Assembly: GCF_963676685.1 (NCBI RefSeq)
Contig: NC_092355.1
Location: forward strand, 8,866,001 to 8,930,000
Length of the DNA stretch: 64,000 nt
DNA from: Mytilus edulis
Taxonomy: Eukaryota
Reading direction: 5' to 3'
The notes below the pieces were generated by a model. That model was not told where the DNA came from. It saw only the letters and a program-made list of their open reading frames with translations, and ran no database searches. A program made the position numbers and the translations under genes. Shown here piece after piece: positions 1,371-50,100 of the stretch. The stretch's first letter is position 1, and each line of letters starts with the position of its first letter.

Positions 1371-1391
1371 ATGAACCTTATGAAGTTATTG
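1371..1391 (+). CDS. Collagen-like gene copy A, 21-bp micro-exon (DEPYEVI)
   Basis: ttttacag|ATGAACCTTATGAAGTTATTG|gtaggt, phase 1-1; conserved in copy B at 38038-38058. Confidence 0.8.
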
Positions 1392-1997
1392 GTAGGTTAT
1401 TATCACATCATTTACATACATACAGTACTAACATGTCAATTACTTTGTCGTTTAAAAATCTAATGAATTCTTTGTACTACTTTCAAAGTCCAACAGAACG
1501 TTGTTATTGGTTAACTTATTAAGAATTAATTATTTTGAATTTAACTTACTCTTTTTTCATTATTTTGTTTCAAATTCGTGATAAAAGAAATATGATAATG
1601 ATTTTGAAAGTGACTTATAGACCCAATGGGTCGGTTGTATGTCATTTTTTATGTAATATATTTGTACTTTGTTAAACTGTTATTACACATGTCACTATAA
1701 TAAAAGACAACCTTACTTGAGTTGCCTCGTCTAACATGTCTAAATAATCATTGTAAAGAAATGCCGGTGTTTAATAAACAAGAGAGAAAAGAGGGCAAAA
1801 AATATACAAAAGAGAGTTGTTGTCAGTTTCAAGTCGACAAAGCAGTTTTAAATAATAACTGAATATTATATCAAGACTAATAATATGAAGCGACATGGAT
1901 AAAATGTCAAGCAAGGAACAAATTTCGATGCCTTAAAAATGATAATGTCAATAATTAATATTAGAACACAAAAACAATTTTAATTGTCTATTTTCAG

Positions 1998-2039
1998 AAA
2001 TTGGAGTACCTGGTCCTCCTGGGAAACAGGGTTTAGAAG
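1998..2039 (+). CDS. Collagen-like gene copy A, 42-bp exon (EIGVPGPPGKQGLE), start of Gly-X-Y
   Basis: ttttcag| ... |gtaaga, phase 1-1, in frame with both neighbouring exons. Confidence 0.85.
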
Positions 2040-2672
2040 GTAAGACGTACTGTAGATTCATTGAAAATTAATATGTAATACTGGAAATATGTTTTGTGTA
2101 AAAAGTAAAATTACAAAAATACTGAACTCAGAGGAAAATCTAATCGGAAAGTCCATAATCACATGGCAAAATCAAATGACAAAAACACATCAAAAACGAA
2201 TGGACAAGAAGTGTCATATTCCTGACTTGGTACAGGCATTTTCAAATTTAGAAAATGGTTGATTGAACCTAGTTTTATAGCGCTAAACCTCTCACTTTTA
2301 CAACAGTCTCATCAAATTCCGTTATATTTACAACAATGCGTGAACAAAACAGACAGAATAAATAAAATAGTCAAAATATGGGTACAGTATTCATCATAGA
2401 AAAGACACAAAAAAAAACTATAAAGTGTTTCTTCATATTGAAATAAACAAATATAATCAAACCAGTAAGATGTGTTTCGATTGTTATCTTTATTACGCAA
2501 GTTTAAACTTATATAAATATTTTGAATATCCCCTACCCCATTTTTTAAATAACGTACCGTTCATTCATTGGTGTATTACAAACAATTGTTATCGTAAAAA
2601 TTCAGAATGCTGAATGAATTTCCTAAATCCTTGCTACTGTTTTTCATTCCATTTATGTTTTACATTTTGAAG

Positions 2673-3185
2673 GAAAAAGAGGATCTCCTGGTCGATCTGG
2701 AACTCCTGGATCAAAAGGAGGTAGAGGAAACCCTGGCAAAACCGGACGTGCTGGACCTCGAGGGTTAATGGGATATCCCGGAAAAAATGGTGAAATGGGA
2801 GATCCTGGGAAAACTGGCAATCCTGGTATAACAGGACCTGCTGGACCAACTGGACAAAAAGGAATGGATGGAGTTCCTGGCTTAGACGGAACGGATGGAG
2901 CAAAGGGATCACCAGGTGCTGATGGTATCCCGGGAGAAAAAGGAGATAGAGGATCTGCTGGCGAAACTGGAACCGCAGGAGACATTGGGCCAGAAGGACC
3001 ATCTGGTCCGACTGGAGCTCCCGGATCAAAAGGAGATATGGGATTAATAGGACCAAAGGGAACAAAAGGAAACCCTGGTCCCAAAGGAGATCAAGGAAAA
3101 AGTGGACCTATTGGAGAAAATGGACGAACAGGGCCACCTGGACCCACTGGTCCAAAAGGAGAAACTGGTTCGTCAGGATCAGGGG
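2673..3185 (+). CDS. Collagen-like gene copy A, main Gly-X-Y exon (57 uninterrupted triplets)
   Basis: Acceptor ttttgaag at 2671-2672; 513 bp = 57 x 9; contains ORF 2768-3193. Ends either at phase-1 donor G|gtattt (3186) or reads on to TAA at 3191-3193. Confidence 0.9.
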
Positions 3186-5961: not shown

Positions 5962-6027
5962 GTGAAACAACGACAACACGAACAACTGAAGAAACGACAA
6001 CACGTACAACTGGAGCAACGACACCAG
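5962..6027 (+). CDS. Collagen-like gene copy A, probable Thr-rich exon (GETTTTRTTEETTTRTTGATTP)
   Basis: Strong acceptor ttttgttttggttttaaacag; phase 1, in frame after 3185; ends at CCAG|gcaagt (GC donor) or continues to PGK*. Confidence 0.65.
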
Positions 6028-7703
6028 GCAAGTGAAGAAAAGGATGCAAAACCATGAAAGTAGTTCCGAGTTTCTTCTGTCTTTAAAAATAAGTTTACTG
6101 ACAGTATGAATTGATGTACCATGAAAAAAAAAAAAAAACTTTATATGATCTATTTATATTCTGTTTTCCCATTTATACTGATAACAATTGTATCAGTGTC
6201 AAGTCAGTTACAAATAAAGTAAAAGAATACCTGTACAGGCTTGTATGCCACTGGTCTAACTACGCCACATTGTATATGTGCTTGTCCCAAGTCAAAAGCC
6301 TGTAGTTGAGTGATTGCCGTGGGTTTCTGTCAGTCATATTAGTTTTTTCGTAAATTGTTTTCTCATAAATAAGGCCATTGAATTTTCGCAAAGGAAATGA
6401 TAGTGTTACATTTTATTTTTTTCAAAACTGAAAAAGAAACATTTAGTAATTGTTTCCAAAATTAAGGGAATTCGTAACAATTCTATGTAGTTTGAAAAAG
6501 GTTTCTTGAAATGTGGTACACATAATGTATTGCTTTTTCTTATAAAATGAAAACAAATGAAGATCTTGACCTTTTAGTACGTTTTACAGTTTCCTAAATA
6601 TTTTAGAGGCGGATACATTAAAAAAAAAGGTGGAGCTTCAGCCATGGAATAACATGAAAATGAATATGTTATACCATGGCTGAAGCTCCGCCTTTTTTTC
6701 TTTGGATTCTAGTCGAGTTGCATATTTAATTAGCAAAGTATGGTACAACATAAATTTGCATATAATATACCATGGTTTTCCCTCACCACACTTTTTAAGC
6801 AAATTATTTCATAAAAACATCAAAGGAAAAAATCCAATTTATGTTACAATATCATATATCAACCAGTTTAATCGAAAGGATTTACCGTAATACAATATCA
6901 TATCTCAACCAGTTTAATCGAATGCTGACGTGCTTTATTTGTCAATTTCAATTCAATATTAATTTTGTTCCTTTTTTATTGTGTTTTTATACCGTTATTC
7001 ATGTTTTTTATTGCCATGTGGCAAAATAACTACTTAAAGAGCTTCTTGACTGTTCACCACCCACTTTTTAAGTACGGTCTCGGTACTTTACTGTTCACCC
7101 CAAACTTCTTAAGTACTGGTTTCTTTATTTTACTGTTCACTACCAACCTTTTAAGTACTGGTTTCTACTGTTCACCCCAAACTTCTTAAGTACTGGTTTC
7201 TGTAATTTACTGTTTACCGCCAACTTCTTAAGTACTGGTTTCTGTACTTTACTGTTCACGACCAACTTATAAGTCCTTATTTCGTTACACACGCGCATCT
7301 GGTTCACAGAGGAACCAATAATGATGCTTGATTCTAAAACTTGTTGAGGAAAATATATCACAAAAAGGTAGAAACATTGTGATTCATTACGAAAGTACTT
7401 GCGTCCTTTTCAGCTAAATACATCAAACGAATTGATTATTCGAAATAGTATTTGTGTAACTCATAATAAGTTATTCAGATGATATGAGAATATCAAATGA
7501 ACAAATACAAAAATAAAGAAATGATACACTTATACACTTAAACTTTTATTTGCGATGTTTTTTTTTATCCGAGTATTTGTACACTTTGTGGAATGTTTTG
7601 ATTATGCTTGTAATTATAATTTAGTATTCCATCTAATGAAACTATCTATGTCTGGTAGCTGAAGATTACAATAATCAAAAAATTTTGTTTTGGTTTTAAA
7701 CAG

Positions 7704-18000: not shown

Positions 18001-18325
18001 CACATGCAATGAACATAGCAAATTCTAGTGTAACCACATCCATTGAACATAGCTCATTTAAATGTTACCACATGCATTAAACATACCACATTCTAGTTTT
18101 ACCAAATGCATTGAACATATCAAATTTTAGTGTTACCACATGCATTTAACATAGCACATTCTGGTTTTACCAAATGCATTGAGCATAGCACATGTTCGTT
18201 ATACCACATGCATTAAACATAGTACACTCTTGTGTTACCCGTAGTCTTGAAAACAGTACCTTTTGGTGTTACCACATGCATTGAAAACAGTAAATTTTGG
18301 TGTTACCATATGCATTGAAAATAGT
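12097..18325. repeat. 34-bp satellite array (about 180 units) with higher-order structure
   Basis: Unit CTAGTGTTACCACATGCATAGAACATAGCACATT; homogeneous centre, diverged right end. Confidence 0.97.
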
Positions 18326-31169: not shown

Positions 31170-31666
31170 AGAACATGCAGAAGAAACGAACGTACAGCGT
31201 ATTTACTCAAAGGCTGGGTATCTGGAATGACCTTGCTAGAACATGCAGAAGAAACGAACGTACAGCGTATTTACTCAAAGGGCTGGGTATCTGGAATGAC
31301 CTTGCTAGAACATGCAGAAGAAACGAACGTACAGCGTATTTACTTAAAGGCTGTGTATCTGGAATGACCTTGCTAGAACATGCAGAAGAAACGAACGTAC
31401 AGCGTATTTACTCAAAGGCCTGGGTATCTGGAATGACCTTGCTAGAACATGCAGAAGAAACCAACGTACAGCGTATTTACTCAAAGGCTGGGTATCTGGA
31501 ATGACCTTGCTAGAACATGCAGAAGAAACGAACGTACAGCGTATTTACTCAAAGGGCTGGGTATCTAGAATGACCTTGCTAGAACATGCAGAAGAAACGA
31601 ACGTACAGCGTATTTACTCAAAGGCTGGGTATCTGGAATGACCTTGCTAGAACATGCAGAAGAAAC
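31170..31666. repeat. 68-bp minisatellite, about 7 copies
   Basis: GAACATGCAG at 31171, 31239, 31308 and onward. Confidence 0.92.
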
Positions 31667-33228
31667 AATCATCCCTCGTATTTACTACTACACATGTCAA
31701 CACAATGATCAACCTAATATGGAATTTACAAAATACCCATGTCAGCACAAAAATGATACAACTGGCTAAGCTGTTATATGCTTTTAATTTCCAATAGGAA
31801 ACAATGGTTATGACGAAAGGCGCGACGGGTGTAACTAATCATCATCAGGGTTCTTTTCTGAGTCTCATAGAGAAGAAATAAATTGCTGATGGTTTCACGA
31901 GATACCAGAGGGATATTGAAATTAAACAAGTTTAAACTCATAAGTAGACAAATACTGAAAATGCCATGGCTAAAAACGAAACAAAACACTAAAGGACAAA
32001 CAACCAAATACTAAACACAAGATAGAATTTAACTTTATATACTAAGCAACACAAACCCCATCAAAACTAAGGATGATCTCAAGTGCTCCGAAAGGGATAT
32101 CATATCCTCTCCTAAGGTGACACCCGTTGTGTTTAACAAACAATTTCCACTCCACTCGTAAAGGGCTGGTTATTAATTTGAGTCCTAAACCATAATGTTG
32201 GACAATGTAGTTTTGATTAATTCCTTTTAGGTAGGTGATTTATGAGGTCATAAAATGAACACTTTATCATAGAATATCAATACCGCAAATCTGACTATTA
32301 TCGATCACAAATATTTTTTATGATAAGATCAAAAGTTTTACAGAAAACTGATTAGGTTTTCAAAGAATAAATGGGTATAATCCTGCCTGCGGTTTTAGTG
32401 CTTGGTACGTTTGCCCTGTGACTATTATTGTAGTATTCACAGATTTGACGATATTCAATATATTCTTCAGATCATATCAGCTGTCAAATCTACATTGGTA
32501 TCTGTCCATGTCTTAATTTGGACAACGGTTGTTCTATTATGTTTGACACTTAAATTCATGGATAAAGTCATGGACAAAAACCAATAAATTGGTTCCCCAC
32601 AAATAATAGTACTTTCATAGTATATATATACTAAGCAACACGAACTGAAGGATGATCTCAAGTGCTCCGAAATGGTTATCACATCCTCTCCTAAAGTGAC
32701 ACCCGTTGTGTTTAACAAACAATTTCCACTCCACTCAGATAGGGCTGGTTATTAATTTTAGTCCTTAACCATAATGTTGGACAATGTAGTTTTGATAAAT
32801 TGCTATCATCATTCTAAGTCCTTAGTGATAATACACATATGTACAAAATAGTGAAGAGTGTTGGATCTACTTATTTGGAATCTTTCAATCAGCCCACATA
32901 CATTCTTTCTGCATGAAACATCTAAAAACCCACTTAACAACTCAACCACATTAGATAAAACATAATGCATACTTTGATGCCTTTGATTTGTTAACGTGGT
33001 ACCTTTGAATTTTTTTGTTGACATGGTTTAATTTTTCAAGGCTATAACATTATATATTATATGATGAAATTTTATTTATAATTCTTTGAATATTTTCAAA
33101 TGAAAGTTAAGTCGAAAAATGTGTTCATAATGACAAAAATTAAGAGGGCATGTTGCGAAAGACTCCAAAATGATTATTTTTCAAAAGGATCAATTTTTAT
33201 ACAAAAGAATTTTAATGCTTAGAAGAAG

Positions 33229-33236
33229 TATTTAAA
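33229..33236 (+). promoter_or_regulatory. Candidate TATA box (TATTTAAA) of collagen copy B
   Basis: About 55 bp upstream of the signal-peptide ATG; position is plausible but the background is AT-rich. Confidence 0.35.
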
Positions 33237-33290
33237 GGGATTACTTTGGAAGTATTCTGCATAGACTTCAATCACACCAAAAAAAGGTCG

Positions 33291-33369
33291 ATGTATATGT
33301 GTTTTTGGTATTGCCTAGCAGTGCTTGTTGCGCTTCAGACTGATGCTAAATCTACACAAAAGATACTCG
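33291..33369 (+). CDS. Collagen-like gene copy B exon 1, signal peptide (MYMCFWYCLAVLVALQTDA/KSTQKIL)
   Basis: ATG, hydrophobic core, T-D-A cleavage motif, perfect donor G|gtaagt (phase 1). Confidence 0.75.
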
Positions 33370-33953
33370 GTAAGTTCTAACTTTCGGAAATAAATTTTTA
33401 CTCTCATATGATTTATCCTATGTCAACGTTGAATTTTGTGCTGCTTCATTTTTCTGAGTTTTTTTTTTTTGCAGTTGTTTGTATACTGTTGTCTCTTTGG
33501 TCGTTTTTTTATGTTGTTTTTTTTTGCCTTGATGTTGTTGTTCTGTCTTTGGATCATGGAATTTAATTGTCCGAATGTTAATCTTGATCTTGACGGGGTA
33601 GGGATCCCGCTAACATGTTTAAAGCCGCCACATTATAACTGTATGTGTCTGTCCCACGTCAAGATCATGTAACAGTGGTTGCCGTTTGTTGCTGTGTTAC
33701 ATATTCATTAAGTGGGTTTTTTGTACATTAATTATGCTGTTTTCTCGTTAGAACTGTTTTACCTTTGTGATTTCGGGGCCTTTTATAGCGGACTCTGCGG
33801 TATTGGCTCTTGGGGAGATTTGTGTTATTGGCAATGATACCACATCATTTATATTTCTTTGTTGTACATTATTAAACACGGCTTTCAAACTTCATTATTG
33901 GATTGTATCAAAGAAAGAGGCAATGTAACTTTCTATGGTTTTATAATACCTAA

Positions 33954-34223
33954 GGTGGTACCTAACACTACAGGGAGATAACTCTGTAATGTCAGCTAAT
34001 GTTTTAATTACGTTGCGTTGTGAAGGCAATATAAAGCTTCTGAATGATCAAAATTAGTGTTTGTCAAACTGCTATATAACCAGTGTAATTTTTCTGATAA
34101 AACGCTTGGTTCAAATTTTTGAATTTTTTATATTTTTGTAAAAGGGTCAAAGTAAATACTTTGTCAAAATTTTATGAAAATTAAATGAGCCAAATTGTTT
34201 TAGTGTAAGTAATGGGTACCATC
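33954..34223. mobile_element. MITE, Kolobok-like termini
   Basis: GGTGGTACC...GGTACCATC termini flanked by CTAA/TTAA. Confidence 0.6.
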
Positions 34224-34942
34224 TTAACCATGTCAGATCAAGGTTGATAAAACATTGACGAATTTAACTATTTAAGAGATTAAATAACAACATATTTGGT
34301 TGATTTAGTAACGAACGTGCAAAAGACTGGACTTATTTAATCTCAATTTGAATATAGATATTAATCTGTTAAATAAAATATAAATATATAAATTGCATGA
34401 ACATGACAAACTGAAATACAGATATTAAATGACGCCACCATAGGAAACACACAATAGGGATATTATTTGTTTGAATTTCATTAGCTTGTTTTCTACTCTT
34501 TGTCCTGCTTTAATAAGCACGGAATTTAGTAGTTGTTTTTTTTTACTCAGCGGTTCAAATGTAACGCAAAGAATAGAAACTTCAAAACTTGTAAATGGGA
34601 AAATATGGAATTTATTTTAAAGGTACAGCTATTGTTAAGGTGAAACCGATGCATCATCATAAATACAAAAAGAAGATGTGGTATGATTGCCAATTAGACA
34701 CCTCTCAACAAAAATTCCTAAAAGTTTTCTAAGGTAATCTATTTCTGAGGTCGACAAACCGTAGTATTTAAAACAAACACAGTTTTTGTAAACAGTTAAT
34801 TCATGATTATGAACATATCAATAATTACTCAAGTCAACACAGGAGTGTTGATTACTGGGCTGGTGATGCGAGTGCTTACGAATAATTACTGAATTTAGCA
34901 TATCTATAAGATAGTTCATAGTGAAAGTTTTTCAGATAGCAA

Positions 34943-35275
34943 ATAAACTGATCCTGTGATCATAGATACAAGGATTAAAATTTTAGATATACGCCAGACG
35001 CGCGTTTCGACTACAAAAGACTCATCAGTGACGCTCGAATCAAAACATGTTAAAAAGGCCAAATAAAGTACCAAAGGTTGAAGAGCATTGAAAACCGAAA
35101 GTTCCTAAAAGTTTTGCCAAATACAGCTAAGGTAATCTATTCCTGAGGTAGAAAAGCCTGAGTATTTAAAAATTCAAAGTTGTGTAAACAGTTAATTTAT
35201 GATTATGAATTTATCAATGATAGCTCAAGTCAACACTGAACTGTCAGAAGTGCTGACTACTGGGCTGCTGATGCG
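34943..35275 (-). mobile_element. Retrozyme-type repeat unit (partial second copy at 34712-34870)
   Basis: Carries the hammerhead at 34991-35034; its body matches 46010-46127 and 42581-42705. Confidence 0.75.
34991..35034 (-). ncRNA. Minimal type I hammerhead ribozyme (one helix II mismatch)
   Basis: Reverse complement GCGTCA CTGATGA GTC TTTTGTA GTC GAAAC GCGC GTC^TGGCGT. Confidence 0.8.
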
Positions 35276-35403
35276 AGTGCTTACAAATGATAACTGTATT
35301 TAGCATATCTAAAATTTCTAACTATAAGATAGTTCTAGTGAAAGTTTTTCAGATAGCAACATAGACAAATATTGAAGTTCAGAGTTTTGATTTTTTTTTG
35401 CAG

Positions 35404-35435
35404 GTAAACTTACAGAACAACAAGATAAAGATGAG
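35404..35435 (+). CDS. Copy B exon 2 (GKLTEQQDKDE)
   Basis: Strong acceptor t(n)gcag; phase 1-0; weak donor gttgaa; joins exons 1 and 3 in frame. Confidence 0.6.
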
Positions 35436-36188
35436 GTTGAATTTTTCTAAGTTAATCGATCATGTTTGTTTTGTTATATCTTAAGCAATTTCTTCACTTT
35501 TCTATTTGTAACTTTTAACTTCAATTTTACTCAAAGGAAACTTTAATTTGTAATGAAAGCAATACAATTGGTACATAAAAAGTCAAGCCACAAAAAAACT
35601 GAATTCAAAACGGAAAGTCCTTAATCAAATGGCAAAATCAAAAGCTCAAACACATCAGACGAATGGATAACAAATGGCATATACTGTCTTGGTACAGGCA
35701 TTTTTTGTGTGTAAAAATGGTGAATTAAACCTGGTTTTATAGCTACCTAAACCTCTTACTTGTAAGAAAAGAGTACCGTAAAATGGAAATCACTAAAATC
35801 AGACTAAACAGTAAAAGTAATATGCATAATGTAAAATAAAAGAATACTATAAAACGTTTTTAAGATGATAACCAACGTCAGTACCCAGAATCTATACTTC
35901 AAGACCCTCGTGTATAATCTATGAAGTTGATACGGAATATTAATGAACAATTTATTGCATTCTTTGATTCGATCACAGCGTCCTAAATGTTTTAAATTTA
36001 ACAAATAAAGTTATGTTATTTCCATTTTTGGGTACGCACATGGAAATTTATGATTCAACATACATAAGTTTCTAGAGCGGCGAATGAATTCATTGATAGT
36101 ACTTTTTTTAATATTGATTTATACTTAAATTTCTATTTACAAATTTAATTTATATTTATAACATAAAAATATTACATTAAAAACACAG

Positions 36189-36264
36189 CTTGTAGATCGT
36201 GTGAAAAGATATACTGACGACGCAGACTACGTATATTTCGATCTTGGACAAGAGCATAAACAAG
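36189..36264 (+). CDS. Copy B exon 3 (LVDRVKR/YTDDADYVYFDLGQEHKQ), contains R-X-K-R convertase site
   Basis: cacag| ... AAG|gtaaat; phase 0-1; open frame continues into the micro-exon. Confidence 0.7.
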
Positions 36265-38037
36265 GTAAATATTTTCTTTCTCATTAAAAAAAGTGTGAAG
36301 ACAAAATATTGATCTCTGATGAAAAGTCCAAAATCAATGGAAAAATCAAAAGCTCAAACACATCAAATGAATGGATCACAACTGTCATATTCATGACTTG
36401 GTACAGACATTTTATGTTCAGTATTTTTGTGATTTTTTTTCTTATGGATATAGCAAATGGTGGACTATAGCTAGCTTAACTTCTCATTTGTATGGCAGTC
36501 TGATTAAATTCCATTAGTTGACAACGTTTTGTGAAAAAAAACCTTCATAAAAAAAATCATTTTTCCAGTGCCTATTGTGACCCTTTAACGTTTGATTCAT
36601 TAAAACGAGTAATTTCTTATAGGAGAAACTTTAAAGGTTTGTTGGAAAATGAATTGCTATATGAAAGAGAAAATTTATCTGCATTTGAATTTTTGATTTT
36701 GATTTTAATGTTTTTTTCCAATCTGTTTTTCACATTTTATCGTTTTGCTAGCTAACAAAATCAATGTTAGTAGTTATTTTGCATTATAATATGCATAACT
36801 TTATACTGAATATACCAAAAGTATCACGAGTCAGAAATGACCTTATTTCACCTGTATACAAGATCTAGGAACTATATTACCTCAAGTTTACAAAATATTC
36901 CATAGAACCCCCGCCCCCCCCTCCCAAAAAAAATGATTGTGCTTTGAAACACCCAAAACATATGTTTATGACACAGAAATATTTTACTGTAACGAAATGT
37001 AGGATTAGTTACCTACAACTGTCAAATTCAAGGGAATATTTTTTCGACCTATTTTCGTATACAACCGGATGTGACGTACCATCATTTGTTGGTATTACAC
37101 CTATACAAATGCGTATTTTGTATTTTATTATTGATCATGTTATTAAAAAAGTTAATAAAAATTATAATGAGCGTGAAGCATTTTACAATTATCAAATAAA
37201 CAACAATGGTCCATTTTATAGTTTCCATTTCGTATCATTCATGTTATACAAGAGAAAGATCAAATAGGGAAAAATATGGTGACCTCTGGTCATCGTCTGG
37301 ACGGCAATAACAAATTTGTCATAACTGGGCGTCCGTTTGATAGAGCAGTGTCAGGTCATTACGGGAACGTTTAATTGTATAAGTAGGGCGCCATGCATCT
37401 TGCACATTAAAAATACGTTGCAGCTTCTCCATTCCCATTCTCAATTTTATTAATGATTGTTCTGTTCAAATTTTCCCGCACTTTTCAATGACAGTTCAAA
37501 ATATCATCTCGTTGGACGTTCGTCATTGTACATACCTATTGGGCATAAATCAAACAGCAAACAATCACGTGGTTGTTGGACATATATACCAGTAAAAATA
37601 CATCTGAAGTAAAGTGCACCTACCAATGTTCTCTAATTTCAATGTGATAGAATATATGATAAAGAGACGAAAGATAAAAAAAGATGAATTCACACTTATG
37701 AGTATGAAAAAAGACTGACAAATCAATGGAAAAACCAATTAAAAAAGAAAATCACAATTATTCATATTATTCATAACACAATGTAGAAAAACTGAAGACT
37801 ATGCCCCCTCTCCCCAACAAACTCGGTTGATCTCAGCTGCCGAGTAATGATATCCTGCTCCAAATATACACATATTGCACATGTTAGTATAAATTCATTT
37901 ATGAGTCTCATTCGATAGCTCATTTCAATTTCAATTTAGTAACATAAAAACCACATAGAAATGATTAAAAAGGGGACTGCTGTGAATCAAGAAATAAACA
38001 AACATTAAGTGAATTGTATTATTGTTTATTTTTACAG

Positions 38038-38058
38038 ATGAACCATATGAAGTCGTTG
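38038..38058 (+). CDS. Copy B 21-bp micro-exon (DEPYEVV)
   Basis: tttacag| ... |gtgagt; homologous to 1371-1391 with only synonymous or conservative changes. Confidence 0.8.
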
Positions 38059-38878
38059 GTGAGTTATTATAAAACCTTTGTAGTGTACAAACAAACAGTA
38101 CTCACATAGCAATTGATTCGCCGTGTTAGAACTCTAATGAATTCAGGGTACTATTGACAAAAGCGTTCAATAAAACGATGTAATTGGTTAACTATGTTCT
38201 GAACAATAGAAAACCCTACTAATTAAAAAAAATCAATAATTTCATGTATTTCGACTTAATAGACATCTGTTCATTTGGAGTTAGAATTTTTTATATCACG
38301 TCTCATAATTTGTCAAAAAAATATTGCAATTTCAATTACTTATAAGAAACATTATTGAGTTAATGTATTAAACAATACATTAACTTTCCAATAAACATTT
38401 ATTTCATCAAATGTAGATTTAATACCAATCAAGTTTACAAAGAAGTCTTGACTTATAAACAAAAGTAAGTATTCCGCTTGTTAGTAATTAATTCATGAAA
38501 TTGTTAATCCGTGTACAAACACTATTACACATGTCAAATCATTTAGGTATGAGGTCCAACGCAGTGCACTTTCATTATGTTCTTGTTCAGAAACATGATG
38601 ATCTGACAACAACTTCAGATGAAAGTCTGTTTCTAAGTTTTGTTTCAACCAGTCCTGCACTAGACAAAATCTTCTCGGAAGGAACGGACTATGATTGTAT
38701 TGCTAAAACACATTTTCCAAATACAGATAAACCTGAGACAAAGTTACAACACATATTAATCTTAAACTATACGTATTTACGTTGTAAATAGATACATTTT
38801 GTTAGTATTTCGAAGGATTTTGCAAAGGCAACTTACCAACGTGAGTCTTAACTTAATGAGAAATATAATATTTATCAA

Positions 38879-39020
38879 ATCCGAACAAATATCCGAGTAC
38901 TTGGTCATCACAGAGAGTATGTAGTACCATAGTACTCGTGATGCCATCGAATCCGAACAAATATCCGAGTACTTGGTCATCTCAGCGAGTATGTAGTACC
39001 ATAGTACTCGTGATGCCATC
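38879..39020. repeat. 72-bp tandem duplication
   Basis: ATCCGAACAAATATCCGAGTAC at 38879 and 38951. Confidence 0.85.
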
Positions 39021-39250
39021 CAAAATACAAATAGAAGCATACTTTTTTTATAATTTCTCCTTCATTTAAAATTTAAATACGCCCGAAAAAAATCCATTTA
39101 GGGTTAATTTTTTTTGTGGTCTCGTTCAATGCTGGTGGTTATGAATTGTATTTTCGATAAGGCAACCCAACGCTTTTGAATAATAGTTGCTTTATCTCGT
39201 CTAAGGTTCCCAAAAGAACACAAATATAAATTTAAATTGTCTATTTTCAG

Positions 39251-39283
39251 AAATAGGGGTACCTGGTCCTCCTGGTAAACAGG
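39251..39283 (+). CDS. Copy B 33-bp exon (EIGVPGPPGKQ)
   Basis: ttttcag| ... G|gtaaga; exactly one triplet (9 bp) shorter than the copy A exon 1998-2039. Confidence 0.85.
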
Positions 39284-40280
39284 GTAAGACGTACTGTAGG
39301 TTCATTGAGAATTATCACCAGAACCCACAATGTCAAACGAATATACTAATGTTTCTTTCTATAGAAACTAAAGCAAATATAGGTAACAGTAGTATACCGT
39401 CGTTCGAAATTCATAAATCGATAGAGAAAAAACAAATCCGAGTTACAAACTAAAACTGGGGGAAACGCATCAAATATAAGAGAACTACGACACAACAGAA
39501 ACACGACATTAACATTAAACACACACAGAAACGAACTATAATATAACAATGGCCATTGTCCTGACTTGGTACAGGGCATTTTAAGAAAAGAATGGAGGTT
39601 TGAACCTCCCGCTTTAATGGCAATGTTAATTATAACATTAAAATGACAACAATACATGACAGGACTACAATACAAAAAAAAGTAAATATAGGACAGAGAA
39701 ACATACGAATAATCGCCAACGAAAGGTACTAGGTTAAATAAAAAAAATTAATACGCCAGACGTGCGTTACGTACAAATAACGAATCAAACATCATCAACA
39801 CCCATAAATAGTTGCCATGAAAAAAACCCAATCTAAGTTTAGTTTAAACAAATCTTATTATTCAAAATGAGTATTAGATCGCACAAAAGTTTTACAACTT
39901 AGTAACGTCTTCTCCAAAACAACAAAAAATACACATTAATTCATTAACACATCAAATATTCCATACTTACAAATAATTTAGGCACACAGTGCAATAAATG
40001 TATCTATAGACTGTAAATATATGTCTATATTATTTTTAGAATCCACCCTATCCAAAAGATAATCACTAGTTTTTAAGATTTCTGAATGTAAAGTTATATA
40101 TGAGAAAATTTAATGACTAATTTTGAATCATTCGTTCATTTATGTATTATAAATTTGATAGGCTGAATAAAAGTATTCAAATGTCTGTCAATAAAGATAA
40201 ACAAATAAGTCATCCAAGTAACCGGTATTTCCTAAATCCAGGCAAATGTTTTCATTCCATTTATGTTTGAAATTTTGTAG

Positions 40281-42007
40281 GAATGAGAGGATATCCTGGT
40301 CGAACTGGATCTCAAGATTTCAATGGGTCTCCAGGAATAAAAGGTAAAACTGGTGAAAGAGGACCTTCTGGACCAACTGGACAAAAAGGAATGGCTGGAG
40401 CCCGTGGTAATGATGGAATGGATGGAGCAATAGGAGCAACAGGTGGTGATGGTATCCAGGGACAACCAGGACAAATAGGACCTGTTGGACCAACTGGACA
40501 AAAAGGAATGGATGGAGCAATAGGAGCAACAGGTGGTGATGGTATCCAGGGACAACCAGGACAAATAGGACCTGTTGGACCAACTGGACAAAAAGGAATG
40601 GATGGAGCAATAGGAGCAACAGGTGGTGATGGTATCCAGGGACAACCAGGACAAATAGGACCTGTTGGACCAACTGGACAAAAAGGAATGGATGGAGCAA
40701 TAGGAGCAACAGGTGCTGACGGTATCCAGGGACAACCAGGACAAATAGGACCTGTTGGACCAACTTGACAAAAAGGAATGGATGGAGCAATAGGAGCAAC
40801 AGGTGCTGACGGTATCCAGGGACAACCAGGACAAATAGGACCTGTTGGACCAACTGGACAAAAAGGAATGGATGGAGCAATAGGAGCAACAGGTGGTGAT
40901 GGTATCCAGGGACAACCAGGACAAATAGGACCTGTTGGACCAACTGGAAAAAAAGGAATGGATGGAGCAATAGGAGCAACAGGTGGTGATGGTATCCAGG
41001 GACAACCAGGACAAACAGGACCTGTTGGACCAACTGGACAAAAAGGAATGGATGGAGCAATAGGAGCAACAGGTGGTGATGGTATCCAGGGACAACCAGG
41101 ACAAACAGGACCTGTTGGACCAACTGGACAAAAAGGAATGGATAGAGCAATAGGAGCAACAGGTGGTGATGGTATCCAGGGACAACCAGGACAAATAGGA
41201 CCTGTTGGACCAACTTGACAAAAAGGAATGGATGGAGCAATAGGAGCAACAGGTGCTGACGGTATCCAGGGACAACCAGGACAAACAGGACCTGTTGGAC
41301 CAACTGGACAAAAAGGAATGGATGGAGCAATAGGAGCAACAGGTGGTGACGGTATCCAGGGACAACCAGGACAAATAGGACCTGTTGGACCAACTGGACA
41401 AAAAGGAATGGATGGAGCAATAGGAGCAACAGGTGGTGATGGTATCAGGGACAACCAGGACAAACAGGACCTGTTGGACCAACTGGACAAAAAGGAATGG
41501 ATGGAGCAATAGGAGCAACAGGTGGTGATGGTATCCAGGGACAACCAGGACAAATAGGACCTGTTGGACCAACTGGACAAAAAGGAATGGATGGAGCAAT
41601 AGGAGCAACAGGTGGTGATGGTATCCAGGGACAACCAGGACAAATAGGACCTGTTGGACCAACTGGACAAAAAGGAATGGATGGAGCAATAGGAGCAACA
41701 GGTGGTGATGGTATCCAGGGACAACCAGGACAAACAGGACCTGTTGGACCAACTGGACAAAAAGGAATGGATGGAGCAATAGGAGCAACAGGTGGTGATG
41801 GTATCCAGGGACAACCAGGACAAACAGGACCTGTTGGACCAACTGGACAAAAAGGAATGGATGAAGCAATAGGAGCAACAGGTGGTGATGGTATCCAGGG
41901 ACAACCAGGAGCCCGTGGTATTGATGGAATGGATGGTGATACTGGACAAACAGGGCCACCTGGACCAACTGGTCCAAAAGGAGAAACTGGTTCAACAGGA
42001 CATAGGG
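40281..42007 (+). pseudogene. Copy B main Gly-X-Y exon, disrupted
   Basis: 1727 bp = 192 triplets minus 1 nt; GGA>TGA at 40766 and 41216; 1-bp deletion at about 41446; Gly substitutions at 40316 (D), 41144 (R) and 41863 (E). Confidence 0.85.
40418..41910 (+). repeat. 90-bp coding tandem repeat, about 16.6 units (MDGAIGATGGDGIQGQPGQIGPVGPTGQKG)
   Basis: ATG of each unit at 40418 + 90n (shifted by 1 after 41446). Confidence 0.97.
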
Positions 42008-42629
42008 GTATTTAAAATTTTAAATATTTGTTGTGCCGTAGGCACATGCTTTTAAATGTGTGATTATATAAATACTTTGATCCAAATTTTATAATCATAT
42101 GACAAACCACAATTTATCTCTATTTTAAATTTGATTTTTTTTTCTTCCATGTTTCTGATTTTGTTTTAAGAAGTATTCACTTTGATAGTTTTAAGATCTT
42201 TTAACTCCTTCGTCGTTTTGTCAATATTGTCTTTCAACAAAAATGTAACTCATCAAGATTATAAAAATGAATAGAAGTCCGAATACTAGTAGCTAGGTAC
42301 TCAATAACTTTATTTTAAACGCCAACTTCTTCTTATTGTAATATACGTATTAAGCTTCTCACTATTGTTAAGCACCTGTTCATCACTAAAAAAGTGAAAC
42401 AAATGGATTATAAAAATTACAATATCATTTCTCAACCAGTTTAATTGAATGCTAACGTGCTACAATTGGATTTCCGTAATACTATATCATTTCACAACCA
42501 GTTTACTCGAATGCTGACGTGCCACAATTGGATTTACCGTAATACAATATCATATCTTAACCAGTTTAATCGAATGCTGACTCCTCAACTTTCTACTTGT
42601 TTTGGCTTTCGAACTTTTTTTTTATCTGA

Positions 42630-42673: not shown

Positions 42674-45600
42674 ATTAAATAATAAGTCTGGTACCTTTGA
42701 TTACTATTATAATCTAGGATTTGTTTAATGAATTGCCCCCCTTCCAAAAGAAAAATCACAAAAAAAACCAACCAACATTATTTTTAGGCAAGGGATGATG
42801 TTTTAACAATATTCTTCATTTATATTGAGACTATTTTCAACAAGTTGTCTCGGATTTTCTACAGAGATATATATAACACATAAAAGAAATGTCTAAATAC
42901 TCAAACATAAAACATGACTAAATGTTAATCAGCAAATATCGACGCAAAGTTATAAAGTCAAAAACTCCTAAATATGCACTTGTATTTGTTATTACAGATG
43001 CGTTTTCTAGACTGCACTGAAGGCAACAAAGACCCCTCCAAATCCATACTGGACGTAGGCGTGGACAATGCATTGTTATTTAGTAGTTTTGATGAGAAAA
43101 TGTTCTTTAAACGCGGAGGAAAATATGTATGGAGTAAAGCGGACTTGAGATTGGAGTGGTGACCATAGAAATTGACTTGACCATTTGAGATTATAAATGT
43201 TTGAGGCAGCATAGCATAGAGAAATGTATTAACCCATCCATTGATAGTATTACACTATTAAAAGATTTTAATTGAATGATATTTGCCTTCCAAAATGCTA
43301 TTCCTGACTTTTTATACGAAAACATATTCAACATGATTTTGTAGAATACAACATTATTTATTGCTTATTTAGTTTGTGCTAATGTTGATATATTATTTTT
43401 TGCAACATACATCGGTTTAGGCTGATCTAAAATAAGTGAGTTTACATGATCGATTTTCCAGTAATTTGCAATTGTTTATTTGAAAATCTTTTCATTTGAA
43501 TAACCGGTATTTGTTATCTAATCATACTGTAATATTAATTTGAAAAAAGGAAATTGTATCATTGATTCATTTTTTTATAATTAATTTTATCAAAGGAAAA
43601 TACTCAAGACTATTCCGTTTTTTAGAGGAATTAACTGTAAATATGTGTTGATATAAAAACGAAAATATGTACGGTGACCAGTTTTTTTTTTTTTTTAAAG
43701 CAAATCACATAAGCTTTGTTCCAATTATTTTGTTGTTATTGTTTTCTATTGTTTTATTACGTTTTCTTTGTTTATACTTTTTAAAGTTCTTTTTTTTTCT
43801 AAACGTATAATCATAAAAAAACTCAATTAGACACAAAGTGTAGCTTGACTTGTTCCGGATGACACATTCTTTTCATGTTTTTTTCATAATAGAACAATAG
43901 AAACGATTTTTTGGCAAAGTACGAACTGATGCTTTTGTCTCGTCTGCGACGGATGTCGCGGCAAGTGTGACATAACAATTGCATTTCCGGCGACGATGAT
44001 GATATAGTCACCAATTGTAAAGTTTTCTGCTAAAGTTAGTTTGTTAGGAACTACTTGCAATAGATCTGCTATTTTTAATAAACATTTGCATAACTATAAA
44101 TACATGTATCAGATTGAAGAGTTTTTTGAGGCCCTGTCGCCAAGGTCATGGTCCTGTGACTTTGGATCAATTTTCAATGTTAAGTTTTCTGTTGAATTAA
44201 TATTAATAAGAGCTCCTTATAATAGACAACAATATTTTCGATAAAGTTGCATTGCTTTTTGTGCATCATGGGTTTTTCGACACTTTTGAGGACCTGTACA
44301 TTAGATCATGGTCTAGTGACTGAATAAATAAACAATATTGCTTTCCATTAGATTATTGTTTTCTGAATTGTATCCCGATAGACAAGACGTATCTATGTGT
44401 CAACAGTTTATCTATTTACACTTTTATCTTCCCTTAACACTATAAAAAGACTCTAACAGAGACATATACTATAAAACACATACTACATGTATCAATTGCA
44501 ATTTCATATTAAAATCATAAAATCATTTCCCTATAACGAATAAAGTTTCATCTAACTGCTGATACATGTAGTAGTCATTCATAATCAAACAAACATATTG
44601 TAAAGGTAGTAGTACATGTATGTCAAGGAGTTTATTATACCTAAATTTTATTGCACACTCATATTTGTATCAGGTCTTTATTAGCTTTTTAATTTCATAA
44701 TTATATTACTATTTTTAAATTTATGGCGGACAATATAAAAACCAAGTGTTATTACACATTAATTAAAATTATGAAATATATTAATGTACATACACATATT
44801 TATTGGTATGAAAAAACCTTTATCATATATGCTTTCTGTGATATATTTACCATTTTATTTTAAGTGTAAATAAAAGGACATCAGAAACAGAGAACATATG
44901 CACTTCTATTTCAATTTCATTTTACCTTTGTATTATTGAAATAAACAGTCAACCAGGGTTTAACTGTAACCCTAGGTCATAAAACCTTTATGTCATATTA
45001 AAATTATCAAAATATTTTGCATATTCTAAAAGTAACTTTATATGTAGGAATCAATTCGTGCCAACTATGTATAATTACTTTCCTGAATTAGTGGTTATAT
45101 ATCATAATTGTATATATATTATTCTAAATCATATTACCTCATTGTACAAAGCGTTTATTTAAATTTGATATTTACTCAATCATTGTTATAAAGAATTTGA
45201 CATAAACTTGTTTTCATGATTATTTGTCTCTTATAAAATAAAAAAACCAATAAAATATGAACACTGAATATGTCTCTCCTTGATTGGAACTCAATACAAA
45301 CATCAACATTGTTCCAAAGGTGAGTCTGATCTAGGGACATTTATTTCCTATCTATGATATGTTCCTGGTCGGATCATGATATAAAATAAAAGCAACAGTA
45401 GTATACCAGTGTTCAAGTCATAAATCGATTGAGACAAAACTAATCCGGGTTACTACCTTAACTTGGTGCATCGACACGACGTCATGAAATTATAATTCAT
45501 ATTCAGTAAAATTAAGAAACAGAATATTATTTAGTTTTTAATATTCATAATAGGAATATGAATAGATAATACAAATGGAAAATGGAAAATGTGTCGAAAC

Positions 45601-46187
45601 AATCCGACCAGAGAGAAAAACACAATCCAATGCCACCAAGATGTTTTACGCGTGGCCAGAACATCCCTCACCTGTAGGCGGGCTTCAGTAAATGTATACT
45701 AGTTCAGTGAAATAGACTCCACACTTATCTCCGAAACATACAAGTCTTGTAATAGTATAAACCATGCCTCTTGATCTCCCCCATCATAGTTGGTAAGGAA
45801 AAAGGTTGAATGTCGTACAGTAAACTTTTAAAAAATGTAGTTAAATGGCCAGTTGCGCGAAACGCGCGTCTGGCGTATATATAAAATTTAGTCCTGGTAT
45901 CTATGATGAGTTTATTTATAAGTACGCTCGGTCAGTGATATTTGTTGCGATTGTATATTGTACCACATTTGCACATTTACACTTTCATATTGATTAATAC
46001 ACTTTTAATTATTCGAAATACTAAAGATTTTCTTATCCCAGGCATAGATTAATTTAGCCGTATTTGGCACAACTTTTTAGAATTTTTTGTTCTCAATGCT
46101 CTTCAAAAATGTTCAACTTTGTACTTGCACAGAGCCTAACTACGGCCAACTTTTTTTTTTCTTATTTCCTAAATTGGAAACAAAATA

Positions 46188-47177
46188 ATGAATTCCGATA
46201 GCTCAAATGAAGAAGCTACAATTGCAGAACCTACCGTTCTTGTAGAAATATTAAAGACACTTACAAAAATGGAGGAAAGAATGGGTAAAATTGAGAGGAA
46301 ATTTGACCAAATAGAACAAATTACCTTCAAGCTAGAAGAAATAGAGAACGCGGTCAAAACTATAAATGAAAGAAACGAACAGACTGAGAACAGTTTTGTA
46401 GGTTTAAGCACAGTGGTGGATGACGTTATCAACCAATGTACCGGGAATAAACAGGAAATTCAAGAGCTGAAATTGGAAATGGAAAAAATAGGATCGGAAG
46501 TGAAAAAATCAAACACCGCAAAAGTCACTGATCAATCTAACGTTATTCAAAAAATGGAAGAAAGTTTGATAGATTTAAAGTGTCGCTCTATGAAAAATAA
46601 TCTGATATTTTCTGGTCTACAATACCAGAAGGATGAGCATGTTGAAGAAAAACTTAGAAATTTCTTACAAAACGAACTTAAAATAAACCATCGAATAGAG
46701 TTCGGAAATGCCCATCGGTTTGGAAAACAGGGCTTTAATGGAACGAGGCCAATAGTTGCAAGGTTTTTGTTCAGAAAAGATTTAGAGATGGTGCTTTCTA
46801 GTGCTTACCACCTTAGAGGAAAACCTTTTGGGATTAAAGAGCAGTTTCCGTTTGAAATTGAACAAGCGCGGAAAAAGCTTTATCCTATCTTAAAGAAAGC
46901 CAAACAGGACGGCAAAATGGCAAGCCTGGTACGGGATAAACTATTTATAAACGGGAAATTATACATGGAAGAGAAAATAAAGACACATTCTCAAACACCG
47001 GCAAAAATGACACAACAGAAAATTGAGGCAACCAACCAGAGCCCGCCAATCCCACCGAGATCAAAACGAGCTAGGACTGAGTCAGATAACAGCCCTATAA
47101 GAAGAAATCTCAGAAACAGTGATTCCATACCTTCTCCATCAACACATGCGAACAACACACAACCAAACCAATATTAG
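46188..47177 (+). CDS. LINE ORF1p (coiled coil + RRM + CTD, L1 ORF1/Transposase_22-like)
   Basis: Heptad-rich N-terminal half, RSMKNNLIFSGL, AHRFGK, RPIVARF, EQFP.EI...RKKL, DKLFING motifs. Confidence 0.85.
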   Translation: MNSDSSNEEATIAEPTVLVEILKTLTKMEERMGKIERKFDQIEQITFKLEEIENAVKTINERNEQTENSFVGLSTVVDDVINQCTGNKQEIQELKLEMEKIGSEVKKSNTAKVTDQSNVIQKMEESLIDLKCRSMKNNLIFSGLQYQKDEHVEEKLRNFLQNELKINHRIEFGNAHRFGKQGFNGTRPIVARFLFRKDLEMVLSSAYHLRGKPFGIKEQFPFEIEQARKKLYPILKKAKQDGKMASLVRDKLFINGKLYMEEKIKTHSQTPAKMTQQKIEATNQSPPIPPRSKRARTESDNSPIRRNLRNSDSIPSPSTHANNTQPNQY

Positions 47178-50100
47178 AGTGGCCACGGAGAACAACCAGC
47201 TAGACAACATACAAAAACGAATATTGAAAATGATTTTAAAAGCAGTAATATATTCTCACTCCCGAATTCAGACATTTATAATGCTTCGACTTCAACCAGT
47301 AGCGATACATGTAACAGTCCTAGAAAAAATATTTCAGCTGGTAGTGATCTAAACATTTTATGCCTGAACTGCTGTGGAATTAAGTCTCGCGTGAATTATC
47401 CAGAATTTAAAGACATTATAGATAATCATGAAATAGTATGTCTTGTAGAAACTAAAACCGATGACATTGATGTGATAAATCTTCCCGGTTACGAATTCAA
47501 AATGAAAAACAGGAAAAAAGTTACGAAAACGAGATCGGGTGGTATTACAGTTGGCTACAAAGAACATTTGAAGACAATGATAGAAATAATAGACACAGAA
47601 TGTAAATATGTAATGTGGTTTCAAGTTAACGGTAAAGCATTTAATTTAGATAAACCCGTTGTTTTTGGAGTCGTTTACATACCTCCGGAATATACTAGGT
47701 ATTCCTCAGATGAAGCTGTTAATGAGATTGAACAAGAATTTCTACGCTTTTCGAACATTTCAAATTACATATGCCTCTTAGGGGATTTTAATGCCAGGAC
47801 AGGTTGTGATGATGATTTTGTAATTATAAATGAAGATGAACATGGTGATAATAACTTGTCTGACTTTATCGAAAACCCTATTAATGCTCTAGAAGCTCTG
47901 TATATTCCCACGAAGAGGGAAAGTATGGATAAAGGAAAAAATAGATATGGCAATATGCTGTTAAATTTTTGCAAAGGCAACGGGGTTTTTATACTAAATG
48001 GAAGATTGGGAAGGGATCAAAATATCGGGCGATTTACTTGTCGTAATGCCAGTGTAGTTGATTATTGTATAAGCACTCCTGAACTTTTGAAAACGTTTAA
48101 GGACTTTGAAGTTTTAGATTCAAGTAAGTTATTGTCAGATGTTCATAACCCACTCTCTATTACTTTTTTCTGTGATAAAAACTTGGCAATTGCCCATGCG
48201 GAAAATGTCGATTATTTTAGTAAAAAGAATACGTTTACGAAGATAAAAAGATGGAATTCTGAAAAGATAAAAGATTTTCAAAATAATATTGATGTAGAAA
48301 AAATAGCAGAATTTGAATACAAACTTACAAATACTGATTTAACTGTAGTGAATAAGAACATCATTAATTCACTTATAGATGATCTGTGTAATTTTTTTGT
48401 CAAGTCTGGGCAGACAACTTTTGGTACTTATACTGTAAAACAGAATAAGAAAAGGGGATATTTTGGAAATAAGAATAAACCCTGGTTTGATGAGGAATGT
48501 AAATTTGCACGTCAAAATTACAGGAAATTAAAAAGACGTTTCAAGTCCAAAAATCATTCTAAAAACAATTCAGACATGTTAAATGCCGAAAAAGCGTATA
48601 AAAACATTCTCGATAGCAAATTTAGAAACTTTAGAAAAGATCTTTCAGATAAAATTCAAAATTTGCGTGGCAAAAATCCGAAAGAATATTGGAAAATTTT
48701 AAATCAGAATAAAAGAAAGAAACAACCAGATATTGACATTGGAAAATTACACGATTTTTTCAAAAATTTAAACGCTGCACCGGAAGATGAAAAAAATGTG
48801 CAATTTCCAGAGATCAATCCCATGCAATGTGAACAGATGAATGAACATATAAATTCGCCTTTTTCAAAAGATGAAATTATCCAGTCTATTAAAAAACTGA
48901 AGAATGACAAAGCTTGTGGTGAAGACGAAATTATAAACGAATACATAAAATCCACATCAAACCAGTTTTTATGCATTTATGAGAAACTTTTTAATATTAT
49001 ATTTGATAAAGGTCTTATTCCACATAGGTGGCTTATAGGTACAATTAAACCAATTTATAAAAACAAAGGAAACTCCAAAGATCCAAAGAATTATAGACCA
49101 ATTACTATCGTTAGCTGTCTGGGAAAACTATTTACAGCAGTTTTGAATAAAAGACTTAATGATTTTTCAGAAGAGTTTACCTTAATACAAGAAAATCAAA
49201 GTGGTTTTCGGCAAAAATATTCTACTACAGATAATATTTTTACCTTGCCTTGTATACTTTTTTTGAATTATTGAAATGTAGGAAAAAGAAATTATATTGT
49301 GCCTTTATAGATTTTGAGAAGGCTTTTGACACTGTATGGCGAGATGGTTTGTTTTATAAAATGTTGTTAAATAATATAAATGGTAAGATGTATAAGGTTA
49401 TATCTAATATGTACTGTGATACTAAATCTCGTAAATCATACAATAATTGTAATTCAGAATACTTTGCTTGTGACAACGGCGTACGACAAGGAGAAAACTT
49501 ATCACCTTTCCTATTTTCTCTATTTTTAAACGATTTAGAAGATTTCTTGGTTAGTACAAATATTACAGGACTTAAAACCTTATCAGAAGACCTTGAAAGA
49601 GAATTAAAAATACATCTAAAACTTTTTATCATATTATACGCAGATGACACGGTGCTGTTGGCCGAAACAGCACAGGATCTGCAGACGCAACTCAATGCCT
49701 TTCATGACTATTGTAAGGTTTGGAAACTGAAAGTAAATGTTGACAAAACTAAAACCCTAGTATTTGGTTTGGGACGTTTGCCAAAAAAATCTCCAATTTA
49801 CTTATAATGGCGTAAGCATTGAGTTAGTAAAGCAGTTTAACTATTTGGGTATTGTTTTTACTAAAACAGGAAATTTTAATATGACTAAAAATATTTATCC
49901 GATAAGGCCTTAAAAGCCATGTACGAAGTCCTGAAAATAGGAAGGATGTATCAGCTTTCTGTTAAATGTCAGCTTGACCTTTTTGACAAAATGATCAAGC
50001 CCATTCTATTGTATGGGTGCGAAATATGGGGCTTTGGTAATAATGATATCCTGGAAAAGATTCATTAAATTTTTTAAAATTCTTTTAAACTTGAAATCCT

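What the first reader, a model, noticed from the sequence alone, without database searches (positions are those of the whole stretch)
33291..42007. Hidden six-exon secreted pre-pro-collagen reconstructed from micro-exons
Seen: exons of 79, 32, 76, 21, 33 and 1727 bp join with compatible phases into MYMCFWYCLAVLVALQTDA/KSTQKILGKLTEQQDKDELVDRVKR/YTDDADYVYFDLGQEHKQDEPYEVVEI-(GXY)n. None of the first five exons appears in the ORF track. Known: R-X-K-R is a furin/proprotein convertase site. Inference: this is a short non-fibrillar collagen family with a cleaved propeptide. I do not recognise it, and it lacks the His-rich and flank domains of byssal preCols in the part visible here.
Basis: partly seen in the sequence, partly recalled or inferred. 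Interest (0 to 1): 0.7.

Follow-up and report, generated by a model that had tools for sequence, protein, structure and literature searches.

The report
Mussel collagen stalk with swappable heads
These six exons are a likely broken copy of a mussel gene cassette for a predicted secreted collagen rod, which other copies carry in front of a lectin, C1q, mucin or short tail, so mussels likely built look-alikes of vertebrate defence collagens from one reusable stalk.

Summary
The six exons are real: sizes, AG/GT ends and phases match. The cassette occurs at 14 loci, one RNA contig joins exon 2 to exon 3, and Mytilus RefSeq models use the same junctions. First, exon 6 here has two TGA stops, a 1-nt deletion and three Gly substitutions. 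The family's first ATG is lost, and a 90.8-kb tandem-duplication junction at 42581/42582 removes the last exon. This copy is probably a pseudogene, or at most a 242-aa headless collagen. Second, exon 6 ends in a phase-1 donor, and paralogues follow it with different modules: C-type lectin (4 loci), C1q (1), a ~14,000-aa mucin exon (1), an acidic Ser/Glu exon (2), short tails (4), none found (2). Lectin-bearing stalks do not form one clade, which suggests head swapping. Papers call collagen-C1q rare in bivalves and trace collagen-lectins to chordates. Members fail several collectin features, and function is untested. The scan had no note on this family; one note reports a similar theme in another cluster.

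The parts
33285..33369 (+). Exon 1 coding part: predicted signal peptide. Family ATG position (33285) reads AGG here; the next ATG is 33291. Phase-1 donor.
   Evidence: Ala at the predicted -1 position in 13 of 14 exon-1 copies (the other has a 15-nt deletion there); signal peptide judged by eye, no SignalP available
35404..35435 (+). Exon 2 (32 nt), predicted propeptide
   Evidence: joined to exon 3 in an RNA contig of a family member
36189..36264 (+). Exon 3 (76 nt): RVKR site, then an acidic Tyr-rich segment
   Evidence: RVKR in 10 of 11 exon-3 copies
38038..38058 (+). Exon 4 (21-nt micro-exon, phase 1-1; skipped in RefSeq isoform X5 of a paralogue)
39251..39283 (+). Exon 5 (33 nt; 42 nt in most paralogues): start of the Gly-X-Y run
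40281..42007 (+). Exon 6: collagen exon swollen by a 16.6 x 90-bp array; TGA at 40766 and 41216, 1-nt deletion near 41447, three Gly substitutions; ends in the family's donor
42418..42582 (.). 62-bp minisatellite and tandem-duplication junction at 42581/42582; likeness to the sister gene ends here and a copy of DNA from 90.8 kb upstream begins
42998..43159 (+). Exon-like stretch with an AG acceptor, brought in by the duplication; entered in phase 1 it would add about 6 residues and a stop; use not shown
   Evidence: (no Pfam match)
1371..3185 (+). Paralogue A, exons 4-6 (57 unbroken triplets in exon 6); exons 1-3 lie just left of the window
5963..6035 (+). Predicted last exon of paralogue A: 23-residue Thr-rich tail and stop; second copy at 7705. 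The finding's gene has no homologue of it.
   Evidence: translation read by eye

Best explanation
The six exons are a shared front cassette (predicted signal peptide, short propeptide ending in RVKR, acidic Tyr-rich segment, collagen rod) present at 14 loci of this genome, and the window's copy is likely a dead one, cut off from its last exon by a 90.8-kb tandem duplication. Shown: exon structure, lesions, duplication junction, the exon 2-3 splice in a relative's RNA, and different exons behind the same phase-1 donor. Taken from database models: collagen joined to C-type lectin and to C1q. Inferred: intact members are secreted, trimmed at RVKR by a furin-like convertase, and fold as triple-helical rods of about 61 triplets that present three copies of whatever the next exon adds (lectin, C1q head, O-glycosylated mucin, acidic or short tail). 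They most likely act as defence and mucus collagens at body surfaces or in haemolymph. Also inferred: rearrangements in intron 6 swap the ends, because any phase-1 exon reads in frame.
For: Structure and conservation. Gly is in every third place in 9 of 9 tested exon-6 copies (54-57 triplets) while X/Y positions show dN/dS near 1.2. RNA: a 496-nt contig of run X2 (depth 87) lies on 36190-36220 and its loose 5' end is exon-2 sequence. Proteins with the same N-terminus: P0151 and P0180 (Collagen + Lectin_C), P0155 and P0277 (Collagen + C1q). Head exons map directly behind the collagen exon in G000. Mucin and acidic exons have phase-1 acceptors. The M. trossulus lectin-bearing stalk is 84% identical to the C1q-bearing stalk and 75% to the lectin-bearing one; AU test rejects one clade of lectin-bearing stalks, p=0.0002. 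Window copy: lesions, no last-exon or head match in 42008-64000 or up to the next paralogue, junction at 42582 with offset 90,839. The sister copy (C12:8989k; introns 71 mismatches in about 6,650 aligned nt) keeps the ATG, 92 unbroken triplets and a tail exon.
Against: No read or contig shows a junction of this copy, and only the exon 2-3 junction was seen directly, in a member not found in G000. Mucin, acidic and tail joins rest on splice signals alone. Only 5 of 14 loci have a recognition head. The P0151 and P0180 lectin domains lack EPN/QPD and WND. The RefSeq models may be built on this same genome, so their DNA is not independent. The AU test used the simpler LG+G4 model and a group named after seeing a tree, and gene conversion between stalks could give the same pattern. 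Most lesions lie behind the first stop, so they do not prove that the first 242 residues are dead. No tissue or challenge data.
Confidence: 0.6

Rival explanations
1. The window copy is alive as a shorter headless collagen: translation from ATG 33291 to the TGA at 40766 gives 242 residues with 57 triplets, close to the family's normal 58-61. With no later exon junction the transcript would escape nonsense-mediated decay.
For: Stop at residue 243. All splice sites of exons 1-6 are intact. Four of the six exon-6 lesions lie behind that stop. Low RNA depth over exon 6 in runs X2 and X3 (4.7-9.2 at its ends), which cannot be told from the sister copy.
Against: Both exon 1-5 differences from the sister change the protein (loss of the first ATG, one Asn/Asp change), a count in line with the 1.1% intron divergence. 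Gly>Asp at 40316 breaks the helix, whereas 9 of 9 tested paralogues keep every Gly. No transcript with this copy's variants was seen.
Confidence: 0.2
2. The family is structural (byssus, gill, mantle or mucus matrix) and not immune; the lectin and C1q ends serve matrix assembly. This does not conflict with the window copy being dead.
For: Nine of 14 loci have no recognition head. Canonical sugar-binding motifs are missing in the commoner lectin head. A mytilid foot transcriptome lists many highly expressed unnamed collagen-like proteins (PMC5549309, passages; not compared by sequence). C1q-headed short-chain collagens such as type X are structural (recalled).
Against: No preCol flanks and no fibrillar C-propeptide. 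One member has an EPN lectin domain. Repeated duplication, loss and fast X/Y change resemble mussel immune families (inference). One transcript variant is absent from this assembly.
Confidence: 0.25
3. The lesions or the duplication are assembly artefacts, and the window copy is the other allele of the intact sister gene.
For: The two copies differ by about 1.1% in introns, an allele-like level. A 1-nt deletion in a tandem array is a typical read error.
Against: The TGA sits at the same place in two repeat units, each followed by a unit with the same two linked changes, so it was copied with the unit. The left part of the duplicated block is only 83-92% identical, including an 88% nSTAND3-ankyrin gene pair, which is too far for alleles. 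No N run lies at the junction.
Confidence: 0.08

Closest known systems
Collectins (MBL, SP-D, conglutinin, CL-10/11)
   Same: Signal peptide, collagen rod and C-type lectin domain in four paralogues; the 61-triplet rod resembles SP-D.
   Different: No Cys in the mature N-terminal segment, no coiled neck, a conserved RVKR site, EPN only in the divergent C11 member; the window copy has no lectin domain.
C1q-like type I proteins / short-chain collagens VIII and X (collagen + C1q)
   Same: The paralogue at C6:70271k (P0277; P0155 in M. galloprovincialis) has signal peptide, collagen and C1q.
   Different: Its stalk is the same cassette as in the lectin members (79-84% identical). Only 1 of 14 loci has this head. 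The architecture is called extremely rare in bivalves (PMC6835236).
Byssal preCols (P, D, NG)
   Same: Mussel, predicted secreted, Gly-X-Y.
   Different: No flanking domains and no His-rich ends (flanks from PMC12817120; His-rich ends recalled); much shorter rod.
Collagens with convertase-cut propeptides (nematode cuticle collagens, cnidarian minicollagens; recalled, not tested)
   Same: Short collagen behind a signal peptide and a basic cleavage site.
   Different: No Cys-rich flanking motifs were seen; no sequence link was tested.
Automatic RefSeq/GenBank models XP_071141572-76, XP_071180292, XP_063448366, VDI17657
   Different: They carry unrelated automatic names. None found corresponds to the window copy or to the mucin, acidic or tailed members.

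Membership tests
Collectin | Collagen-like region | tested here: met
   Pfam PF01391; 61 triplets in P0151
Collectin | C-terminal C-type lectin domain | tested here: not met
   Absent behind the window copy; present in 4 of 14 loci
Collectin | Cys-containing N-terminal segment for oligomers (PMC5794833) | tested here: not met
   No Cys between the predicted signal cleavage and the first Gly-X-Y in 10 of 10 aligned rows
Collectin | Alpha-helical coiled neck between collagen and lectin (PMC5794833) | tested here: not met
   In P0151 the first lectin Cys follows 2 residues after the last triplet, unlike the SP-D P0210; judged from sequence, as the AlphaFold model was uninformative
Collectin | Ca/sugar site motifs EPN or QPD plus WND | tested here: inconclusive
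   None in P0151 or P0180; EPN without WND in the C11:48738k member
Collectin | Binds glycans, recruits MASP | not testable with these tools
   Needs binding assays
C1q-like type I | Signal peptide + collagen + C1q domain | tested here: not met
   Not in the window copy; met only by paralogue C6:70271k / P0277
Byssal preCol | Non-collagen flank domains on both sides of the collagen | tested here: not met
   27-residue acidic segment in front; no flank-like exon behind
Byssal preCol | Made in the foot core gland | not testable with these tools
   The runs carry no tissue label
Fibrillar procollagen | About 1000-residue helix and COLFI C-propeptide (recalled) | tested here: not met
   58-61 triplets in typical members; no COLFI match
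Furin-processed proprotein | Conserved R-X-K/R-R | tested here: met
   RVKR in 10 of 11 exon-3 copies; absent where exon 3 is missing (C12:8961k, C11:48738k)
Furin-processed proprotein | Cleavage shown | not testable with these tools
   Needs N-terminal proteomics

The most novel reading that the evidence does not exclude
Mussels have their own defence-collagen kit. One collagen cassette with a phase-1 end has repeatedly captured new last exons (two kinds of C-type lectin, C1q, a 14,000-residue mucin, acidic tails) through rearrangements in intron 6, rebuilding collectin-like and C1q-like proteins independently of chordates. The near-equal stalk lengths let chains with different heads form mixed trimers. 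The window copy shows the capture step itself: a duplication junction has placed a foreign acceptor 416 nt behind it.
Probability: 0.3. Interest if true: 0.8.

Novelty: new variant of a known kind. Interest (0 to 1): 0.58.

Why it matters
A genome survey traces collagen-bearing mannose-binding lectins only to chordates (PMC11312191), and collagen-tailed C1q proteins are called extremely rare in bivalves (PMC6835236). One mussel stalk serving both, plus a mucin, would be a compact and recent example of exon shuffling converging on vertebrate defence collagens. It offers concrete candidates for the activators of the bivalve proto-complement system, including an intact-looking EPN lectin-collagen. 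The window copy itself matters mainly as a record of how the 3' ends get cut off or exchanged.

Tried and rejected
My first reading, a headless family ending at an in-frame stop 8 nt past the collagen exon, was dropped when proteins with lectin and C1q heads appeared. That stop follows the donor in 11 of 12 loci and may allow intron-retained headless forms; untested. Sequencing-run search: no RNA holder listed. The first lay of runs X1, X2, X3 and X22 on 33000-42400 was swamped by intronic repeats; no exon-exon joint was among the 15 joints shown, with 51 more not shown. In the second lay 1 of 4 runs had a record; X3, X15 and X21 had none, which is no test. The 30-nt variant from that contig has no match in G000 at 2 mismatches. 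Protein searches: the collagen exon alone gave nothing at 1e-30; the exon-3 frame gave nothing at E<=10; the representative library gave only long generic collagens, 0 of 150 with family motifs; 3 of 120 listed hits are family members. The Atlas returned only generic collagen clusters. AlphaFold of P0151 without an alignment had mean pLDDT 37 and was not used. The trimer prediction was not run (no verdict). A Cys-rich frame conserved behind several collagen exons was rejected as an exon because it resembles a repeat also present in intron 1 (by eye). The stretch at 42998 looked hemopexin-like by eye but has no Pfam match. No head was found for C6:70251k in 14 kb. No further exons were found within 49 kb and 39 kb of the lone exon-1 copies at C6:13159k and C12:32604k. 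Nine paper searches listed no paper whose title or abstract start describes this family; subscription journals are mostly not covered, and no supplements were read.
Full report
OBSERVATION. The collagen exon is not open. It holds a 16.6 x 90-bp array with TGA at 40766 and 41216, one 89-nt unit (deletion near 41447), and Gly changed to Asp (40316), Arg (41144) and Glu (41863). The joined frame stops at residue 243, after 57 triplets.

THE STRUCTURE IS NOT CHANCE. Exon 1 finds 14 places in the own genome. Profiles of each exon plus flanks, run over the fetched loci, give 14 loci with the collagen exon: C12 8862k, 8899k (window), 8961k, 8989k, 9018k, 9084k, 15764k, 15791k, 24114k, 24133k, 37741k; C6 70251k, 70271k; and C11 48738k (the output of 22 was partly cut). 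Eleven have exons 2-5 in order and phase. 8961k lacks exons 2-3 (an in-frame skip), 9018k shows only exons 4-6 and is broken, and C11 has a simpler five-exon form. Exons are better conserved than nearby intron (64-86% against 48-67%; 10 of 10). Over exons 1-5, dN/dS is below 1 in 42 of 42 usable pairs (median 0.46, not independent). In exon 6, 9 of 9 tested loci keep every Gly while X/Y positions give about 1.2 (the window, 8989k, 9018k, 15764k and C11 were left out of that count). RVKR is kept in 10 of 11 exon-3 copies.

TRANSCRIPT EVIDENCE. One 496-nt contig (depth 87) in run X2, guessed to be RNA, lies on 36190-36220 with exon-2 sequence directly before it. It has 125 nt ahead of exon 3, which fits exons 1 and 2. 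It diverges after 36220 and its variant is not in G000, so it is another member or allele. Three other runs gave nothing, and the first lay was swamped by repeats. Some match G000 paralogues letter for letter and may derive from the same genome. No evidence shows that the window copy itself is transcribed.

EXON 6 IS NOT THE END. It closes with a donor in 12 of 12 loci checked, phase 1 where the frame is intact. What follows differs. A four-exon C-type lectin follows at 15764k (stalk frameshifted), 15791k and 37741k. A different two-exon lectin with EPN follows at C11, in an open 358-residue model. One C1q exon follows at C6 70271k. A single open exon of about 14,090 codons (29% Thr, 25% Ser, 21% Pro in the first 11,134) follows at 9084k. 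A 97-residue Ser/Glu/Asp exon follows at 24114k and 24133k. A homologous small exon giving tails of 23, 3, 4 and 17 residues follows at 8862k, 8961k, 8989k and 9018k (three read by eye). Nothing was found for C6 70251k or the window copy. The lectin and C1q joins are backed by database models; the others rest on phase-compatible acceptors only.

HEAD SWAPPING. On the DNA stalk tree the lectin, C1q and C6 70251k stalks form one clade (100/100) apart from the tailed and acidic ones. The lectin-bearing M. trossulus stalk is closer to the C1q-bearing stalk (84%) than to the lectin-bearing 15791k stalk (75%). Forcing the two lectin stalks together is rejected (p-AU 0.0002; LG+G4, group named after seeing a tree, C11 and four repeat-expanded, broken or incomplete rows left out). 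Gene conversion among stalks is an alternative.

HOW THE WINDOW COPY AROSE. It matches the sister at 8989k from window 31170 to 42581 (introns 1.1% apart). The sister keeps the ATG, 92 unbroken triplets and a tail exon. At 42582 the window switches to a copy of DNA that starts 90,839 nt upstream. A tandem duplication therefore ends in intron 6, inside a minisatellite and with a few bases of shared sequence at the join, and the left copy lost its last exon. The left part of the block is 83-92% identical between copies and the right part 94-99%. This argues for an old real duplication with later exchange, not a doubled haplotype. The stops look genomic, because the same TGA with the same linked neighbours occurs in two units. 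The junction places an AG acceptor at 42998, which in phase 1 would add six residues; its use is not shown.

MECHANISM. Shown: cassette, lesions, junction, varied downstream exons. Inferred from established collagen and convertase biology (recalled): secretion, cleavage after RVKR, and triple-helix formation presenting three ends. I favour a defence or mucus role because the identifiable ends are lectin, C1q and mucin and the family turns over fast. The structural rival remains open (0.25), as does a live 242-residue product of this copy (0.2). An artefact is unlikely (0.08). These rivals are not mutually exclusive. Roughly: cassette real 0.97, window copy dead 0.7, defence or mucus role 0.55.

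COMPARISON. The lectin members work like collectins in layout but fail membership on the Cys N-terminus and the neck (definition from PMC5794833, passages). One member fits C1q-like type I. None is a preCol (PMC12817120, passages). PMC6835236 (passages) calls collagen tails extremely rare in bivalve C1q proteins but notes a few such genes. PMC11312191 (passages) finds collagen-bearing MBL only in chordates and collagen C1q also in molluscs. PMC8878817 and PMC9835746 (passages) say coiled coils usually replace collagen in spiralians; I could not see the figure of the latter that marks collagen-bearing forms by taxon. PMC12842671, a 2025 review of bivalve C-type lectins, has no occurrence of 'collagen' in its main text. 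PMC5549309 and PMC11741071 (passages) and PMC10639161 (passages, irrelevant) add no description of the family. A 2019 survey of lectin-pathway proteins in Lophotrochozoa (Gorbushin; recalled, not read) and paper supplements may bear on novelty.

VERDICT. Observation partly confirmed and interpretation partly supported. This is a probably dead copy of an apparently undescribed mussel family in which one collagen cassette carries several kinds of end. New variant of a known kind; interest 0.58.

Noticed in passing
G000:C12:9073318-9031049 minus (L021, L030, L031, L033, L032): A single open exon of about 42 kb (about 14,090 codons) of Thr/Ser/Pro/Gly repeats directly behind a collagen exon: a predicted giant collagen-mucin.
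   Followed up: partly
L015 (G000:C11:48738k minus): Intact-looking five-exon gene for a 358-residue signal peptide + collagen + C-type lectin with EPN; the most MBL-like member.
   Followed up: partly
window 59636-61978 minus: 780-codon ORF with nSTAND3 NTPase and ankyrin repeats; an 88% copy lies at C12:8832k.
   Followed up: no
window 46173-50825 plus: Broken LINE-like element: a 334-codon ORF, then endonuclease and reverse transcriptase in pieces; not in the other copy of the duplicated block.
   Followed up: no
window about 5060-6400 and 6840-8130: Local 1.74-kb duplication that doubles the Thr-rich tail exon of paralogue A.
   Followed up: partly
window 12097-18324 and 18738-21690: Long satellites of 34-bp and 28-bp units with strong strand skew.
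   Followed up: no
L009 and L011 (C12:15764k, 15791k): RefSeq isoform X2 (P0151) appears to take exon 1 from the upstream paralogue and the rest from the downstream one, 27 kb apart.
   Followed up: no
window 42008-42015 and 10 paralogues: An in-frame stop sits two codons into intron 6 in 11 of 12 loci, which would give headless forms on intron retention.
   Followed up: no
L012, L013, L041, L023: Lone exon-1 copies at C6:13159k and C12:32604k and weaker ones at C12:9087.7k and C11:48741k; unrelated C-type lectin exons lie 22-31 kb beyond the C12:32604k copy on the same strand.
   Followed up: partly
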